Shown piece after piece: positions 14,698 through 27,036 of a DNA stretch of 51,799 nucleotides. Positions within the stretch are counted from its first letter, which is position 1; every line of letters begins with the position of its first letter. The stretch is from a virus: the IMG/VR virus record IMGVR_UViG_3300025141_000053, positions 32,001 to 83,799 of that record; one strand, written 5' to 3'. The position numbers and the translations under genes were made by a program. The notes beneath the pieces were generated by a model that saw nothing but the letters and a program-made list of their open reading frames with translations, was not told the DNA's origin and did not search any database.

Positions 14698-14861
14698 TTT
14701 TTATTTTTTCAAATTACTAATTTTACAAGGCAGTAGTAGCTTTACTATCATATAACGCGATATATTTAATGTATGAATTTGTCTCATTTATACAGATTTT
14801 TTATTCAACCTATCAATAAGTTAGTATTATCTTGAATATTTTATTGATAGGAGTGTGTAAA

Positions 14862-16700
14862 ATGCTTGAAAATTTTGGTATAGACTATGAAAAAGTTTTA
14901 GAAAAACTAAGTGAAGATAAAGACATAAAACCAGTAAAGGGCAATGAAGATAAGATGATGCGAGTTGCTTTTGACTTTTTTAGATTGAAAGATGCTAATC
15001 CTGAGACATTATGGCAGGTTCAGAAGGCAGATGACGGACAAGAGTATTTAATGAGGACTTTTTCCGATGGCGAAGAAGAAGGATTAAAGGCTGAGTCAGA
15101 TTGGGACGTACAATTAAATAAAGAAGGGACAGACCTTACTATATATAAGTCTGATGTTCCAGTTCATAGAATGGATTTAAATAATATGAAAATAGGGCGC
15201 GATGAGTCTGAGGGCTTTCGCGCTTTTGTTTATGGTAAATTACAAAAAAATGATACTGATTTTTTACAGAAACTTGCTATGGAAATGCCCTTAACAAAGA
15301 TTTCTGCGCTTAAGGAGTCTGGTATTGTTGACCTAGATGAAGCCCGCACAAAGGCTGAGTGGGCTGTTTTAGACAAAATAAGAAAAAGTGCCAGAAAACT
15401 TACCAAAGATATCAAAATGACGATTTTGATTACTACTAAAGACTTGGATATTAGAGATAGGCTAACTCTAAACGATGTGGATGCTGTTATTGTTAAAGTT
15501 GGTCCTACCAGCACCGATGTAGATCCTAATAGGTTAGTTACTCCCAAAAATTATTATTCTTTTTTTAAAAAAAGAATAAATAGACCTTTGGGAAAAGGTT
15601 CTTGGCTATATAAAGATTCTTTTGGAATGAAAGATGAGTCTGGGAAAGAGGAAGAAATAAATCTTTCCCCATTTGGAAAGGAAGAGAGTGGTAATATAAC
15701 ATATCATTTTTTAGACAAGACTTCAATAGCCCAACTTAATAATGCTTTTGGTAGGATGAATCAATATTATAAATTTGATTGGCCACAACGGAAACCATAC
15801 ATGAAGACTGTTGGTAATGTACATAGTCTTATTGATTATTTTTTGGCAAACAAAAGAGAAAGGAAATCTGTTGCTAGAATACCAGATTACCGCAAATCTG
15901 CGTTGTATGCTGCTCTCAAAGAAGCAAAAAAAAAATCCAAACCTACAGATATGGCACCATTCTTACTACAAGTAGTTAGCCAAACTCTTACAAATCTGCG
16001 TGGCAAAAATCAAGGATATTGGGTAAAGAATCAATATGTTGGCGAAGTTCAAAAGATTCTAAAGAGAGAGCGTCTGTATAGGGGCATAGTGGATAGTATG
16101 TGGGGTCCAATGACTCGTAATGCTTGGAATGGTTTTATTAAAAAATATCCTAGTGCTGCCAAATGGGGAATGAAATCATATTCTGGAAAACAAAAACCAG
16201 AACATAGAGTTCTTATTTGGTTTACTGATAATCATGAGAGATTAAGTGGTAAACAGCAACAGCAAATAAGTCCAGAGCAAGTACAACAGATGAAAAAAGA
16301 GATAGGTCAAGGTGTTGGAAAAGCAACTGACTGGATTTCTAAACAATTCGGTGGTAAGAAACCGGCTGTGGCACCAACAGCAGTCACTAAGGTACCTGGT
16401 GCTGCCAGCAATGTTCCGGGTGGTAGAGCCCCTGCGGCAGCTGATGATCAGTGGTCTTTAGCATTTCAAAATCTCGAAATGAAGAAAAGTGCCAGAAAAC
16501 CGGGTGAAACAATGCCTATGCCTAAGAAAAAAGATGAAACTGACGAAGAGCATAAAAAACGCGAAGATAAAGAAACAGAAAAACAGAAGAAAAAGAATAA
16601 AGAGGTTCAAAAAAGAAAGCCTGGACAAACACGAAGAATAAAGTTTAAAAATTCTGAAGCGCAATGGGAACTTGCTTTTAGCAGTTTAAAAAAAAAGTAG
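14862..16700 (+). CDS. Multi-module putative virion protein containing a peptidoglycan-binding-like domain
   Basis: AGGAG SD before ATG 14862. VGEVQKILKRERLYRGIVDSMWGPMTRNAW resembles PG_binding_1. A W-x-L-A-F / KSARK-type motif recurs three times. Confidence 0.65.
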   Translation: MLENFGIDYEKVLEKLSEDKDIKPVKGNEDKMMRVAFDFFRLKDANPETLWQVQKADDGQEYLMRTFSDGEEEGLKAESDWDVQLNKEGTDLTIYKSDVPVHRMDLNNMKIGRDESEGFRAFVYGKLQKNDTDFLQKLAMEMPLTKISALKESGIVDLDEARTKAEWAVLDKIRKSARKLTKDIKMTILITTKDLDIRDRLTLNDVDAVIVKVGPTSTDVDPNRLVTPKNYYSFFKKRINRPLGKGSWLYKDSFGMKDESGKEEEINLSPFGKEESGNITYHFLDKTSIAQLNNAFGRMNQYYKFDWPQRKPYMKTVGNVHSLIDYFLANKRERKSVARIPDYRKSALYAALKEAKKKSKPTDMAPFLLQVVSQTLTNLRGKNQGYWVKNQYVGEVQKILKRERLYRGIVDSMWGPMTRNAWNGFIKKYPSAAKWGMKSYSGKQKPEHRVLIWFTDNHERLSGKQQQQISPEQVQQMKKEIGQGVGKATDWISKQFGGKKPAVAPTAVTKVPGAASNVPGGRAPAAADDQWSLAFQNLEMKKSARKPGETMPMPKKKDETDEEHKKREDKETEKQKKKNKEVQKRKPGQTRRIKFKNSEAQWELAFSSLKKK

Positions 16701-16987
16701 AAGCGGGCTCGCCAACTGCTGGTAAGCGGGGGGGACATAAGTCTCCGCCTAAGGGATACCCAAAGGATAAATCGCAATATGCAGATCCAAAGAATTATAA
16801 ATATCCATTAGATACAGAAAAACGTGTTAGGGCGGCACATAGTTATCTTTCGCAGAAAAAGAATCAAAAGGGATATTCATTAGCAGAAATAAGTACGATG
16901 ATGTCTAAAATTAAATCTGCTGGCAAGAAATATGACATTGAGTATTCTGAAGTAGATGATCAATATAAAAAAGCATTTCGTAGATAA
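16697..16987 (+). CDS. 96-aa DUF6582-like domain reached by -1 frameshift from the upstream gene (not in the ORF track)
   Basis: The -1 frame after TTA AAA AAA AAG TAG reads VEAGSPTAGKRGGHKSPPKGYPKDKSQYADPKNYKYPLDTEKRVRAAHSYLSQ...KIKSAGKKYDIEYS...RR*. It has no usable start codon of its own before the conserved part. Confidence 0.65.
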   Translation, partial: VEAGSPTAGKRGGHKSPPKGYPKDKSQYADPKNYKYPLDTEKRVRAAHSYLSQKKNQKGYSLAEISTMMSKIKSAGKKYDIEYSEVDDQYKKAFRR

Positions 16988-17082
16988 GTAGCAAGAGATA
17001 GTTATATTGGACAGGAATATAATTTTGAGCAATATATTAATAATTTTAAATAAATAAGAGAATTCTTTTTGGAGGAAAAGAT

Positions 17083-18729
17083 ATGACAAATATCAATAAC
17101 ATTAAAAGTGAGGCAGAGAGGCTTTTAAAAGAACTACAACGTGGCAATGAATATATTATTGCGGAAGTTGATAATAGAATGAGACAAGCAGTTGCTGAAT
17201 ATCCCAGAGATACAGTCATTCGTGCTGTGGCAGGTGTAATTGAAAAGATGGCAGACAGTGATCCTAGCAGAGTAATCTCTCAGGGAGAAATTGGTGATAT
17301 CTATAATAACCTTATAGGTTTGAACTCAAATACTCAATTTAGAGAGGCGTTAGGGGATTTTCTTAATACTAAAATTGAAAAAACATCTACCACCAATAAA
17401 GAGTTTATTTCTAAAAATAGAGATACTCAAGAAGGGTCTCTTGATGTATTAGCGGGAGTAGACAATGAATTAAAAATTTTATTTGAACAATCCGAAGATA
17501 AATATGATAGAGATAAAATTGCTCCAGCAAAACACAGAGTAGAATCTGAGTTATCAATGAATGGATTTAATAGAACTCGCACAAAGTTTGCCGGGGGAAA
17601 TTCCAAATTTTTAGTTTTTTCTTCAGACTTAGATACTAATAGGGGTGCTGTAAGAGTATATGTTCCTTGTGAGGCAGAAACAGATAGTCTTCCTTCAGTA
17701 TTTGTTGCTGGCGACCAATTTATGGAACTTAATGCAAGTAATATTCAAAACCATATTATAGAATCTGCTAATTTTAGAACACAACTGCCACCTGTTCATG
17801 CCATTCTACATTCACTTGACCTCTTAACTTCTCAAGCCGAAAAAACAATGCCAAAAGATGAATTTGATAAGATTGCCGGGAATATTCCTACAAGTAAAGA
17901 CATGCCACTTTCGGCACCATCTTTGCTTGGTCAAATGCCAGAAGGAAAGCCTGTTGGCATGATTGAAATGCCTAGAGTTGAAACTCCCGAGCCATTAAAA
18001 ATTCTTGCTAATGATTTAGAAGAACAAATGGTTGAGACTGCTTTAGACTTTCCACTTGTTTCAGTTAGAACTGCCAAAAAGATGTTAGTTGCTGAGATTA
18101 ATGCCATGGGATTTTCTGGAACACAAGTTAAAATTGCTGCACCAACCCAAGATGGGTTCATATGTGAGGCAATTATAAATTCTCCAAGTGGTAAAGTAAG
18201 TATAGAAGTTCCCATTGAGATGAAGCAAAATAGGCCATTAATGCCATCAGTTTTTGCCAAGAACGATCAAATATTTGATTTTGATGAGGGTTCTGTAAAA
18301 GCATTTGTTTCAAAAGGATCAAATAGAGACACATATATTAATAGAGATAATCAACTATTAGATGTTGATATTTCGAAATTACGTGATCTATTAGTTAAGT
18401 CAGCAATCGATAAAGATTTTGGAACTTGTGATGAGATCTTAGCAGTTGCTTCTGAAAGATTTGATGCTGTAACTTACAAAAATCTTATAACTGATTTTAA
18501 CTCCATTCTAAAAAATGCCAGCCTAACAACAGAAGAATCTTGTTGTTCAAGACAAATCAAAAGTCCTAATTCTATTTATAAATATTGCGGTCATTATAAT
18601 GTTCCATTACATGATGTTCTTCAAGATGATGGTGGAAATTGTTGTTTGAAAAAGACACACTATTCTCGCGAAGCTCAAAGATCTGAGGGAGCGATGTTTT
18701 CTAACGCAAGAGTTTTGATTAGCGAATAA
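17083..18729 (+). CDS. Hypothetical protein with an internally duplicated ~80-aa domain and Cys-rich C-terminus
   Basis: GGAGG SD; two copies of AK....E...GF......G.V...VP.E....PSVF. Confidence 0.8.
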   Translation: MTNINNIKSEAERLLKELQRGNEYIIAEVDNRMRQAVAEYPRDTVIRAVAGVIEKMADSDPSRVISQGEIGDIYNNLIGLNSNTQFREALGDFLNTKIEKTSTTNKEFISKNRDTQEGSLDVLAGVDNELKILFEQSEDKYDRDKIAPAKHRVESELSMNGFNRTRTKFAGGNSKFLVFSSDLDTNRGAVRVYVPCEAETDSLPSVFVAGDQFMELNASNIQNHIIESANFRTQLPPVHAILHSLDLLTSQAEKTMPKDEFDKIAGNIPTSKDMPLSAPSLLGQMPEGKPVGMIEMPRVETPEPLKILANDLEEQMVETALDFPLVSVRTAKKMLVAEINAMGFSGTQVKIAAPTQDGFICEAIINSPSGKVSIEVPIEMKQNRPLMPSVFAKNDQIFDFDEGSVKAFVSKGSNRDTYINRDNQLLDVDISKLRDLLVKSAIDKDFGTCDEILAVASERFDAVTYKNLITDFNSILKNASLTTEESCCSRQIKSPNSIYKYCGHYNVPLHDVLQDDGGNCCLKKTHYSREAQRSEGAMFSNARVLISE

Positions 18730-26070: not shown

Positions 26071-27036
26071 ATGATATTAAATTTAATAAAATTAGCAAAT
26101 AGATTAGATAGTTTAGGATACAGAAAAGAATCTGGAATTATAGATGTAATTATTAAAAGAGCATTAGATCCTCAAGTTAAGGCTTTAATAGAATCTGGGC
26201 AAGGATGGACATATGGTTGTCCTAGTTGTAATAGTCCAGTAGACATTGATAATAATGTATTTAGTAAATTTATGCCTGAGCCAATAGAATGTCCGAATTG
26301 TAATAATAGTTTTTCTCCTCATGATGCTGGTGCTAGTCGTAGAATAATGGGTCCGGGGAATATGAAGGGCATGAAAGAAGAGTTTGGTGAGCACGCATTA
26401 AGCGAACAAGAGAGTGGCCTTTGGACTGTTTATACACTTGGAGCTCCATTATTTGTTTTTGAAGGGAAAGCCAATGCTCAACAATTTATGAGATCGCTTA
26501 TGAAAGATCCTGGGCAATTTCTTCCAAAAGCGAAACAGTATGCTTTGGCACATGTTCTTAGAAAAGCGTTGGGCTGGTTCGGCACTGTTTTTCCTCCCGC
26601 ATCAAATCCATGGGGAGAAATAAATTGGGATGACCCAGAAACTTGGGACAAGGCAGAAGAACAGATGTGGAGAGATGCTAGGGTTGGTGCCTCGCATGAA
26701 AGAATTCCCCATAGTGATGTTGAGTTTTCTAAAAGACAGATTGACCCTGATGCGGTATTTGAAGATGCTATTGAAAAATCAACCAAGGTAGTGCCATGCG
26801 ATGTTCCTCTAGATAGTAGTGAGTATGTACATCATGGAGAATCTCCAGACAAGGGCCATAAGAAAAAACAAGAACAGTTAGTTGAAAAATTACCAAAAGA
26901 CGAAGATGGACTTTTGGAATCTTATGAAGTTCTTGATGAACATGGCGACAGAGTTAGGAGACAAGTTTTGCTGAGAGAAAAAATTAGGAATGAGGACAAG
27001 GATCCAGATAAACTTGCCGATGACATGAGGTGGTAA
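26071..27036 (+). CDS. Leader-bearing Zn-ribbon protein (paralog of 31483-32391)
   Basis: N-terminal MILNLIKLANRLDSLGYRKESGIIDVIIKRA; CPSC..CPNC..FSPHD; C-terminal DPDKLADDMRW. Confidence 0.8.
   Translation: MILNLIKLANRLDSLGYRKESGIIDVIIKRALDPQVKALIESGQGWTYGCPSCNSPVDIDNNVFSKFMPEPIECPNCNNSFSPHDAGASRRIMGPGNMKGMKEEFGEHALSEQESGLWTVYTLGAPLFVFEGKANAQQFMRSLMKDPGQFLPKAKQYALAHVLRKALGWFGTVFPPASNPWGEINWDDPETWDKAEEQMWRDARVGASHERIPHSDVEFSKRQIDPDAVFEDAIEKSTKVVPCDVPLDSSEYVHHGESPDKGHKKKQEQLVEKLPKDEDGLLESYEVLDEHGDRVRRQVLLREKIRNEDKDPDKLADDMRW

What the first reader, a model, noticed from the sequence alone, without database searches (positions are those of the whole stretch)
16686..16987. Probable programmed -1 ribosomal frameshift adding a hidden DUF6582-like domain
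Seen: the gene ends T TTA AAA AAA AAG TAG, so the A AAA AAG heptamer directly precedes the stop. A GC-rich island follows that can fold (gcgg-ggggg-ac ataa gtc-tccgc, ~16726-16748; also ctcgc..gcggg). The -1 frame stays open for 96 codons and encodes YADPKNYKYPLDTEKRVRAAHSY...KIKSAGKKYDI, which I recognise as DUF6582-like, and it has no start/SD of its own. Known: A AAA AAG is the E. coli dnaX slippery site and is stimulated by 3' structure. Inference: short and long isoforms of a putative virion protein, outside the usual tail-chaperone context.
Basis: partly seen in the sequence, partly recalled or inferred. Interest (0 to 1): 0.72.

Follow-up and report, generated by a model that had tools for sequence, protein, structure and literature searches.

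The report
Out-of-frame last module behind poly-A run
In an uncultured marine phage, the last domain of a modular "beads-on-a-string" protein sits one base out of frame behind a run of nine A's, so it can be made only if the RNA polymerase or the ribosome slips there; this is a real example of a known trick, but it is not shown to be deliberately programmed.

Summary
Gene 14862-16700 ends TTA AAA AAA AAG TAG, with A9 at 16688-16696. The -1 frame then stays open for 96 codons with no usable start and encodes an intact DUF6582 domain (PF20223, 57.9 bits).

Two relatives (P0005; P0173 = L025) carry the same module in frame at the same linker junction. The window is exactly one A short of that state.

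The module's dN/dS against L025 is 0.10 at dS about 1, the same as neighbouring genes. It is therefore either still translated or only very recently cut off.

A9 is identical in JGI and ENA assemblies, so an assembly error is unlikely.

The specific dnaX-like reading is not supported. The 3' hairpins are not significant and the stable one lies 31 nt away. The GC island simply encodes a conserved Gly/Pro-rich peptide. No upstream SD-like element exists. The arrangement is not conserved: relatives have the module fused or as a separately called ORF, and 79 wider family members lack it.

A sister lineage has another start-less module behind the same linker run, which is A8 in one strain and A9 in another.

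My best reading is a slippage-prone tract giving a minor long isoform, with RNA polymerase and/or the ribosome slipping. A phase-variable or recent indel is the main rival.

This scan has reported similar poly-A junctions on other genomes.

The parts
14862..16700 (+). Carrier gene, 0 frame, 612 aa (P0003). The ATG at 14862 is the start shared by all relatives (MLENFG...); a TTG at 14832 is an unlikely alternative.
14862..15395 (+). Conserved N-terminal domain (aa 1-178). The family has 307 clusters at 50% identity, and the domain is always at residue 1. The AF2 model has pLDDT 84, with no informative fold match.
15926..15935 (+). A10 run inside the same gene, read in frame (KEAKKKSK). It shows that long A-runs are tolerated and are assembled consistently.
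15996..16235 (+). Module resembling a peptidoglycan-binding repeat (aa 379-458). It recurs in P0004 and twice in L002.
   Evidence: SleB PG-binding domain, E 0.023: weak
16446..16487 (+). Linker motif 1, DQWSLAFQNLEMKK.
16659..16697 (+). Linker motif 2, AQWELAFSSLKKK. Its KKK is encoded by the A-run.
16688..16697 (+). Slippage tract A9-G, with the heptamer A_AAA_AAG at 16691-16697. One more A would put the DUF6582 module in frame.
16698..16700 (+). 0-frame TAG stop directly after the tract.
16697..16987 (+). -1 frame ORF, 96 codons plus TAA, with no start codon. This is the terminal 'bead'.
16769..16951 (+). DUF6582 (PF20223) core, residues 25-85 of the -1 product.
16955..16984 (+). Truncated third linker, DDQYKKAFRR, cut by the TAA. 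Relatives continue ...AFRRLELKK.
16707..16749 (+). Two predicted RNA hairpins (16707-16727 weak; 16728-16749 GC-rich). They are not significant against shuffles.

Best explanation
The gene encodes a modular 'beads-on-a-string' phage protein. It has a conserved N-terminal domain followed by exchangeable modules. The modules are joined by a 14-residue linker, (D/E)Q(W/Y)..AF..L(E/N).KK.

The Lys-Lys-Lys of the last linker is encoded by a homopolymer, because this 33% GC genome writes 75% of its Lys codons as AAA. In this phage the run is A9, one base short of the in-frame length. The 0 frame therefore stops at once, giving a 612-aa short form that ends at a linker. Some distant family members end naturally in the same way. 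The last bead, DUF6582, lies in the -1 frame.

I think a minority of molecules is extended into that bead by slippage on A9-G. Either the bacterial RNA polymerase adds one A to the mRNA, or the ribosome slips -1 on A_AAA_AAG with the adjacent stop as a pause. I cannot say which contributes more. Both routes give the same product, ...SSLKKK-VEAGSPTAGK... (708 aa).

Shown here: the anatomy, the in-frame homologues, purifying selection on the module, the reproducibility of A9, and the length polymorphism of the equivalent run in a sister lineage.

Inferred: that slippage really occurs here, how efficient it is, and that the short:long ratio matters. I regard it as a derived, lineage-specific state (a tolerated or exploited one-base indel in a slippery tract), not an anciently conserved recoding signal.

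The role of the DUF6582 bead is unknown. Elsewhere it sits between the prohead protease and the scaffold or capsid, so a role inside the procapsid is my guess.
For: - In-frame fusions of the same module at the same linker: P0005 (...LELKKK-IAGLPTTGK..., 84% identical) and P0173/L025/L026 (...LELKK-ESGSPAAGK..., 86% identical).
- At the DNA level the window differs from L025 at the junction by +5 nt (A9 against A7, plus 3 nt), so it is one A short of in frame.
- dN/dS of the module, window against L025, is 0.097 (bootstrap 0.03-0.22) at dS 0.97. The N-terminal domain gives 0.108 and the next gene 0.096.
- All 22 family-invariant residues are kept.
- No start codon is available to the ORF.
- A9 is identical in a JGI contig (L001, 7.8 kb, 100% identical) and in an ENA MEGAHIT contig from another project (L028). 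The exact 612-aa product is on 6 contigs.
- A second case exists in a sister lineage. L004 has GTA A9 G followed by a different 98-codon start-less module in the -1 frame.
[quoted passage not shown] C. rodentium tssM1 has the same architecture, with an A-run, a stop and the C-terminal domain out of frame, and makes two length variants (PMC4256274).
- A short form ending at the linker is natural in distant members: L022/L023 end ...LSKK* at TCA AAA AAA TAG with nothing behind.
Against: - The arrangement is not conserved. The nearest relatives with this module have it in frame (P0005, P0173) or as a separately called 102-aa ORF 41 nt downstream (P0007). None of 79 wider family members has a start-less out-of-frame module.
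- In L002/L005 the equivalent run is A8, so their module needs +1 or -2, not -1. That fits a drifting tract as well as it fits a programmed one.
- No significant 3' structure is at the right distance, L004 has none at all, and there is no upstream SD-like element or Rfam frameshift element.
- The low dN/dS cannot exclude a very recent frameshift, because the in-frame ancestor was under selection.
- The host, its tRNA-Lys set and its polymerase are unknown, and the window has no tRNA genes.
- No RNA or protein data exist.
Confidence: 0.5

Rival explanations
1. Recent or phase-variable DNA-level indel. The linker's poly-A tract is hypermutable during replication. A9 is simply an 'off' state that removes the terminal bead, on the way either to decay or to reverting, with no functionally relevant long isoform from A9 genomes. 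Diversity, if any, lies between genomes (A8/A9/A10 sub-populations) and not between molecules.
For: - Sister strains L002/L005 (A8) and L004 (A9) are 100% identical for 1,500 nt on each side of the run.
- Over 8.2 kb they differ by 53 substitutions, and this run is the only indel that is not a multiple of three. The three other shared homopolymers of 8 or more have equal lengths.
- In-frame relatives show that the fused state is ancestral or common.
- The arrangement is derived and lineage-specific.
- Short forms ending at a linker are viable elsewhere.
- Hypermutable homopolymer switches in phage genes are a known kind; I name the Campylobacter phage poly-G tracts from my own knowledge.
Against: - No 'on' (in-frame) allele was seen in either lineage: the window lineage is A9 in every contig, and the sister lineage is A8 or A9.
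- Three lineages (window, L002/L004, and possibly the P0004 contig) have an intact terminal module out of frame. That is a coincidence if such states are short-lived.
- The module shows no relaxation of constraint (omega 0.10).
- An A9 tract would slip during expression to some extent in any case (PMC5009743).
Confidence: 0.28
2. One reading: a dedicated dnaX-type programmed -1 ribosomal frameshift on A_AAA_AAG. It would be stimulated by the downstream GC-rich hairpins and would set a fixed short:long ratio.
For: - A perfect A_AAA_AAG heptamer lies in the 0 frame with a stop directly 3'.
- The same A9-G with a -1 module occurs in L004.
- The local fold (-22 kcal/mol in 60 nt) is somewhat stronger than in the in-frame relative L025 (-15.6).
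- In bacteria with a single tRNA-Lys this heptamer is highly shift-prone (PMC5009743).
Against: - The fold is not significant (z -1.5 to -2.0; 15-16 of 200 shuffles as good).
- The stable stem starts 31 nt after the heptamer. The usual spacing of 5-9 nt is from my own knowledge.
- The GC island is explained by the conserved peptide it encodes.
- L004 has no downstream structure (-1.0 kcal/mol).
- There is no SD-like stimulator upstream and no Rfam element.
- L002/L005 need +1 or -2.
- The window's genes hold 37 in-frame A_AAA_AAR heptamers, so the motif is not selected against or specific.
Confidence: 0.12
3. Assembly or sequencing error. The true genome has A10 and a single 708-aa ORF.
For: Long homopolymers are error-prone, and one extra A gives a clean fusion that matches the in-frame relatives.
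Against: - A9 is identical in a JGI contig (L001) and in an ENA MEGAHIT contig from another project (L028). The exact 612-aa product is on 6 contigs.
- The A10 run at 15926-15935 in the same gene is assembled in frame.
- Between L002 and L004 only the junction run varies, not the other homopolymers.
Confidence: 0.05
4. The DUF6582 ORF is translated on its own, by re-initiation or from a non-canonical start, as a small stand-alone protein. Many DUF6582 proteins elsewhere are like this.
For: - Stand-alone DUF6582 proteins of 95-130 aa with their own Met are common (P0008-P0024).
- In the P0004 contig a 102-aa DUF6582 gene is called separately.
Against: - In the window there is no ATG/GTG/TTG, and no CTG/ATT/ATA/ATC in frame, before the conserved core starts. 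The first ATG is at codon 67.
- There is no SD upstream.
- The -1 frame opens only 5 codons before the run.
Confidence: 0.03

Closest known systems
Citrobacter rodentium tssM1 / Yersinia pseudotuberculosis tssM3 transcriptional frameshifting (Gueguen et al. 2014, PMC4256274)
   Same: A poly-A run lies directly before the stop of a truncated gene. The missing C-terminal domain is encoded out of frame just downstream without its own start. Orthologues elsewhere are single in-frame ORFs. Two length variants are expected.
   Different: The run is A11 there and A9 here. There the slippage, both isoforms and the importance of their ratio were shown experimentally; here nothing is measured. That is a bacterial secretion-system gene, and this is a modular phage protein of unknown function.
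E. coli dnaX tau/gamma programmed -1 ribosomal frameshift (as reviewed in PMC5009743)
   Same: The slippery heptamer A_AAA_AAG is identical, and one gene gives two products.
   Different: dnaX has an upstream SD-like element and a strong stem-loop at the proper spacing, and there the frameshift makes the SHORT product. Here no significant stimulators were found, the shift would make the LONG product, and relatives do not conserve the arrangement.
Thermus thermophilus dnaX transcriptional slippage on a 9-nt A/T run (PMC5009743)
   Same: The run is exactly 9 bases, the length at which bacterial RNA polymerase slips efficiently. Heterogeneous mRNAs would be translated normally.
   Different: In Thermus the genomic frame encodes the long form and slippage gives the short one; here it is the reverse. 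The host polymerase is unknown.
Hypermutable homopolymer (poly-G) phase switches in Campylobacter phage receptor-binding genes
   Same: A homopolymer at a module junction of a phage gene differs in length between otherwise identical genomes (seen here in the sister lineage, L002 against L004).
   Different: The tract is poly-A, not poly-G. No in-frame 'on' allele was observed. The gene is not a fibre or receptor-binding gene.
Lambda G/GT-type tail assembly chaperone frameshift
   Same: A phage gene gains a C-terminal extension through a -1 shift.
   Different: The genomic context is wrong (between the replication genes and unknown genes, 10 kb upstream of the terminase), the proteins are unrelated, and there is no conservation across relatives.

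Membership tests
DUF6582 (Pfam PF20223) | HMM score above the gathering threshold | tested here: met
   57.9 bits against 27.3, E 1.3e-15, profile positions 22-82 of 83.
DUF6582 (Pfam PF20223) | Conserved core residues retained (H..PPKGYP...YADP..(Y/F)KYP...VRAA..Y...KNQ.GYS) | tested here: met
   All 22 invariant columns of a 12-member alignment are kept. The AF2 model of the core has pLDDT 86-91.
dnaX-type programmed -1 ribosomal frameshift | X_XXY_YYZ heptamer in the 0 frame with a coding -1 ORF behind it | tested here: met
   A_AAA_AAG at 16691-16697, followed by 96 open -1 codons that encode a Pfam domain.
dnaX-type programmed -1 ribosomal frameshift | Stimulatory RNA structure a few nucleotides 3' of the heptamer | tested here: inconclusive
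   A weak hairpin starts 10 nt downstream and the stable one 31 nt downstream. The z-score is -1.5 to -2.0. L004 has no structure.
dnaX-type programmed -1 ribosomal frameshift | Upstream SD-like stimulator | tested here: not met
   The 42 nt upstream hold no GGAGG-like stretch, only GGGA about 21 nt away (sequence read).
dnaX-type programmed -1 ribosomal frameshift | Site and frame arrangement conserved in diverged relatives | tested here: not met
   The module is in frame in P0005 and P0173 and a separate ORF in the P0004 contig. The run is A8 (needing +1 or -2) in L002/L005. The arrangement is absent from 79 wider family loci. Only L004 shares A9-G with a -1 module, and that is a different module.
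Transcriptional-slippage genes (T. thermophilus dnaX, C. rodentium tssM1) | Homopolymeric A/T run of about 9 or more at the frame junction | tested here: met
   A9 at 16688-16696. The length criterion is from PMC5009743.
Transcriptional-slippage genes (T. thermophilus dnaX, C. rodentium tssM1) | One added base restores an ORF that orthologues encode in one frame | tested here: met
   A10 would give ...LKKKVEAGSPTAGK..., aligned to the in-frame P0005 and P0173 junctions.
Transcriptional-slippage genes (T. thermophilus dnaX, C. rodentium tssM1) | Heterogeneous mRNA population and two protein isoforms | not testable with these tools
   No transcript or proteome data are available for this uncultured phage.
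Phase-variable homopolymer switch | Tract length differs between otherwise identical genomes | tested here: inconclusive
   Met in the sister lineage: L002/L005 have A8 and L004 has A9, with identical flanks, and it is the only frame-changing indel. Not seen in the window lineage, where all contigs are A9. Consensus assemblies hide minority alleles.
Phase-variable homopolymer switch | Both in-frame (on) and out-of-frame (off) alleles occur in one lineage | tested here: not met
   No in-frame allele was found in the window lineage or in the L002/L004 lineage.
Tail assembly chaperone G/GT frameshift | Position between the major tail protein and tape-measure genes | tested here: not met
   The gene follows RecA, DnaG primase and an HTH/sigma-like gene. 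The large terminase is 10 kb downstream.

The most novel reading that the evidence does not exclude
The Lys-run of the conserved linker is a built-in slippage or phase switch of a modular phage 'cargo' protein. By slipping on the linker's poly-A tract, the phage sets what fraction of the carrier receives the terminal DUF6582 bead. In other phages that domain lies between the prohead protease and the scaffold or capsid, so it may act as a procapsid-targeting tag. The frameshift would then dose how much of the carrier, with its peptidoglycan-binding-like module, is packaged into the head for delivery. The same linker switch would be reused with different terminal beads in sister phages (L004).
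Probability: 0.12. Interest if true: 0.7.

Novelty: new member of a known kind. Interest (0 to 1): 0.4.

Why it matters
If the long isoform is really made, gene callers miss a whole conserved domain here. The database holds only the 612-aa product, plus one miscalled ORF predicted under TAG=Q. The true product set of this phage would then include a 708-aa fusion.

It would add a phage example of poly-A slippage outside the tail-chaperone genes. It would also link DUF6582, a domain of unknown function that recurs next to prohead proteases, to a modular protein.

More generally, AAA-rich Lys linkers in AT-rich phages create slippery junctions at the exact points where modules are exchanged. That is a simple route to variable C-termini. 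If the A9 state is only a recent indel, the case is an ordinary frameshifted gene end.

Tried and rejected
- **`phages` collection.** tblastn of the carrier protein found no match.
- **DNA of the ENA contigs for P0005, P0004 and P0007.** It could not be fetched because the sample files are too large. I therefore could not read the junction DNA of P0005, or the 41-nt spacer before P0007. Whether P0007's 'M' is a real start or the TTG/Leu of the conserved AG(L/S)PT stays open.
- **P0006.** This 107-aa ORF with its own Met looked like evidence for an independent start. Its contig (L028) is identical to the window, and the ORF exists only if TAG is read as Q. It is a gene-calling artefact.
- **TAG reassignment.** I considered that the upstream stop might be read through. 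It leads into the wrong frame, not the DUF6582 frame.
- **Fold searches.** The DUF6582 model had no PDB match by Foldseek (best E 4.4). The N-terminal domain model had no PDB match by Foldseek and only weak PH-like partial similarities by VIA-align (Z 5.0 or less over about 50 residues). In BFVD it matched one uncharacterised phage protein. Neither search gave a function.
- **Pfam and PHROGs on the carrier and on the L002 terminal module.** No hits.
- **Relatives of the L002/L004 terminal module in viral contigs.** Only the source contig came back, so no dN/dS test was possible for that module.
- **Rfam scan of 16500-17150.** No frameshift element.
- **Promoter and terminator scan.** Nothing above chance.
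- **Literature.** No paper in the library mentions DUF6582.
- **T4-type L-x-E protease site.** I considered that the linker might be one, but the position varies (E, N, D, Q), so I dropped the idea.
Full report
**1. The observation**

The sequence is as described. Gene 14862-16700 ends AGC AGT TTA AAA AAA AAG TAG. A9 is at 16688-16696, G at 16697 and TAG at 16698-16700. The heptamer A_AAA_AAG lies in the 0 frame.

The -1 frame is closed by a TAG at 16679-16681 and is then open from 16682 to 16987. From 16697 it encodes 96 residues (P0001). These match Pfam DUF6582 at 57.9 bits against a cutoff of 27.3. The ORF has no ATG, GTG or TTG before its codons 67-68, and no near-cognate start before the conserved core.

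As a control I counted in-frame X_XXY_YYZ heptamers in the window's genes. There are 222, of which 37 are A_AAA_AAR. The -1 frame behind them stays open for a median of 5 codons, a 90th percentile of 16, and at most 25 elsewhere, against 96 here. Slippery heptamers are therefore commonplace in this genome (33% GC; Lys is 75% AAA). What is exceptional is the long, domain-coding, start-less ORF.

**2. What the gene is**

The window is a marine phage. Upstream lie a trigger factor, a Pol III alpha, a RuvC-like gene, DnaJ, RecA, DnaG primase and a small HTH/sigma-like gene. The large terminase is 10 kb downstream.

The carrier's first roughly 175 residues define a large family: 307 clusters at 50% identity, always at the N-terminus. 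In 79 viral contigs of up to 470 kb, most members are N-domain-only proteins of about 153 aa, followed by a conserved gene of about 540 aa.

In the window's subclade the N-domain is followed by a chain of modules. They are separated by a 14-residue linker, (D/E)Q(W/Y)..AF..L(E/N).KK. The modules differ from phage to phage:

| Protein or locus | Length (aa) |
|---|---|
| Window | 612 |
| P0005 | 724 |
| P0004 | 835 |
| P0173 | 1,214 |
| P0025 | 1,471 |
| L004 | 1,524 |
| L002 | 1,672 |

One window module (aa 379-458) weakly resembles a peptidoglycan-binding repeat (SleB, E 0.023). Neither the N-domain nor DUF6582 has an informative fold match.

**3. The -1 ORF belongs to this protein**

Two members of the subclade carry the same DUF6582 module in frame, directly after a linker:
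- P0005 reads ...AFQKLELKKK-IAGLPTTGKSGGHKSPP... and is 84% identical.
- P0173 reads ...AFRRLELKK-ESGSPAAGKSGGHKSPP... and is 86% identical. There the module is flanked by linkers on both sides.

The window reads ...AFSSLKKK* in the 0 frame and VEAGSPTAGKRGGHKSPP... in the -1 frame.

DNA is available for P0173 (L025, L026). It reads TTA AAA AAA GAA TCG GGC, which is A7 and in frame. The window is 5 nt longer at the junction, with two more A and three other bases, so it is exactly one A short of in frame.

A third arrangement exists. In the P0004 contigs a 102-aa DUF6582 ORF (P0007) is called separately, 41 nt after the stop and also in the -1 frame. I could not read that DNA.

**4. Is the module alive?**

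All 22 invariant positions of the module family are kept.

| Region, window against L025 | dN/dS |
|---|---|
| DUF6582 module | 0.097 (bootstrap 0.03-0.22; dS 0.97; 32 synonymous and 20 non-synonymous differences) |
| N-terminal domain | 0.108 |
| Next gene | 0.096 |

Either the module is still translated, or the frameshift is very recent.

**5. Is A9 real?**

The exact 612-aa product is on 6 contigs. A JGI contig (L001) is identical to the window over 7.8 kb. A 645-bp ENA contig from another project and assembler (L028) is identical too, including A9. The A10 run at 15926-15935 in the same gene is in frame. I put an assembly error at about 5%. All these contigs are one population, however, so they say nothing about evolutionary persistence.

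**6. The specific dnaX-like model**

The region after the stop folds into a weak hairpin (16707-16727) and a GC-rich one (16728-16749). The energy is not distinguishable from shuffles (z -1.5 and -1.7; -2.0 with mononucleotide shuffles). The stable stem starts 31 nt after the heptamer.

The GC-rich island encodes the Gly/Pro/Ala-rich peptide that is conserved in the in-frame relatives. Their DNA is equally GC-rich.

There is no SD-like sequence within about 20 nt upstream and no Rfam element. The only potential stimulator is the adjacent stop, a 'shifty stop' in the term of Weiss et al. 1987, listed in PMC5009743.

**7. The sister lineage**

In L004 the last linker...AFSRLDVKKK, is written GTA A9 G. 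A different 98-codon start-less module follows in the -1 frame. In L002/L005 the run is A8 and the same module is in the +1 frame.

The strains differ by 53 substitutions over 8.2 kb. They are identical for 1.5 kb on each side of the run. This run is their only indel that is not a multiple of three, and the other long homopolymers have equal lengths.

So the linker's Lys-run does change length at the DNA level, and in both states the terminal module is out of frame.
- This argues against a tuned -1 ribosomal signal, because A8 needs a different shift.
- It is compatible with RNA-polymerase slippage, which gives a ladder of transcript lengths.
- It is also compatible with a phase-variable or drifting tract.

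**8. Mechanism**

Established knowledge (PMC5009743):
- A_AAA_AAG is the most shift-prone -1 heptamer in E. coli, owing to its single tRNA-Lys. About half of bacteria have only one.
- Bacterial RNA polymerase slips with high efficiency on runs of 9 A or T, yielding mRNAs with extra bases.

C. rodentium tssM1 has the same architecture, with an A-run, a stop and an out-of-frame C-terminal domain. It makes two required length variants by transcriptional slippage (PMC4256274).

Both routes give the same protein here, ...SSLKKKVEAGSPTAGK.... I therefore commit to slippage on the A9-G tract producing a minor long isoform, with confidence 0.5. I do not assign it to the polymerase or the ribosome.

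The rivals are:

| Rival | Confidence |
|---|---|
| Recent or phase-variable DNA indel with no relevant long isoform | 0.28 |
| Strictly ribosomal, structure-stimulated PRF | 0.12 |
| Assembly error | 0.05 |
| Independent translation of the ORF | 0.03 |

**9. Function of the bead**

Near relatives of this DUF6582 module in the protein search are stand-alone proteins of 95-130 aa. In other viral contigs the domain lies between a prohead protease (Peptidase_S78 or Mu-like_Pro) and the scaffold-like or major-capsid parts of fusion proteins. That places the domain in head assembly.

The end of the carrier's N-domain (KESGIVDLDEARTKA) resembles the shared leader of a head-region protein of this phage (KESGIIDVIIKRA at gene 26071). 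Together with the weak PG-binding-like module, this makes a capsid-packaged, cell-wall-directed protein a reasonable guess and no more.

**10. Novelty**

This is a new example of a known kind: a poly-A junction with an out-of-frame C-terminal domain. The scan has reported similar A9-A11 junctions in other genomes. Conservation, the hallmark of programmed recoding, is lacking here.

The more unusual aspect is the beaded architecture itself. Its linker Lys-runs are both the points of module exchange and slippery tracts.

Noticed in passing
window 14862-16987; L002:6001-11019; L004:2101-6675; L025:526-4170; L024:2501-6916: The carrier gene family is a 'beads-on-a-string' protein. A conserved N-domain of about 175 aa is followed by modules that differ between close relatives. 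The modules are separated by a conserved 14-aa linker, (D/E)Q(W/Y)..AF..L(E/N).KK. Lengths range from 612 to 1,672 aa with the same neighbours.
   Followed up: partly
L029-L107 (79 viral contigs, up to 472 kb): The N-terminal domain is widespread in large and jumbo phages. There it is a stand-alone protein of about 153 aa ending ...KYPELV, always followed by a conserved gene of about 540 aa, the homologue of window 17083-18729. Neither has a Pfam or PHROG family.
   Followed up: partly
L013:2541-5246; L019:2742-4409; L021:2823-5168; L012:204-1496: In other phages DUF6582 is embedded in prohead protease (Peptidase_S78 or Mu-like_Pro) - DUF6582 - coiled coil - (major capsid) fusion proteins. The domain of unknown function is therefore tied to head assembly.
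   Followed up: partly
window 15996-16235: A module with the motif ...VQKIL...G.VDS.WGP.TRNAWN.F... recurs in P0004 and twice in L002. It weakly matches the peptidoglycan-binding domain of the SleB cortex-lytic enzyme (E 0.023). Pfam does not detect it.
   Followed up: partly
window 15312-15380 (carrier aa 151-173) and 26071-26170: The end of the carrier's N-domain (ISALKESGIVDLDEARTKA) shares KESGI(I/V)D...(K/R).A with the N-terminal leader of the head-region protein at 26071. These are the only two hits of that motif among the window's proteins. P0004 has the carrier motif twice.
   Followed up: partly
L024:6873-7064: In relative L024 the 3' end of the carrier gene is replaced by different sequence. 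A 63-aa CxxC...CxxC (zinc-ribbon-like) ORF with its own ATG overlaps the gene end in the +1 frame. The 3' end of this gene is a hot spot for module turnover.
   Followed up: no
L028:33-356 (= window 16664-16987): A public gene call (P0006, 107 aa) for the DUF6582 ORF exists only because a 645-bp contig was translated with TAG=Q. It is a gene-calling artefact that nonetheless put the hidden domain into protein databases.
   Followed up: yes
window 17030-17082; L002 and L024 upstream of the ~550-aa gene: The intergenic stretch before the next gene (...TATATTAATAATTTT(A/G)AATAA...TTCTTTTTGGAGGAAAAGATATG) is nearly identical in relatives whose coding regions have diverged by about 20-25% at the protein level. 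It is probably a conserved regulatory or ribosome-binding region.
   Followed up: no
L002:7616 against L004: The copy number of a 21-nt repeat encoding AKKPAAG varies between the sister strains (a 42-nt in-frame indel) inside an Ala/Pro/Lys-rich spacer of the carrier gene.
   Followed up: no
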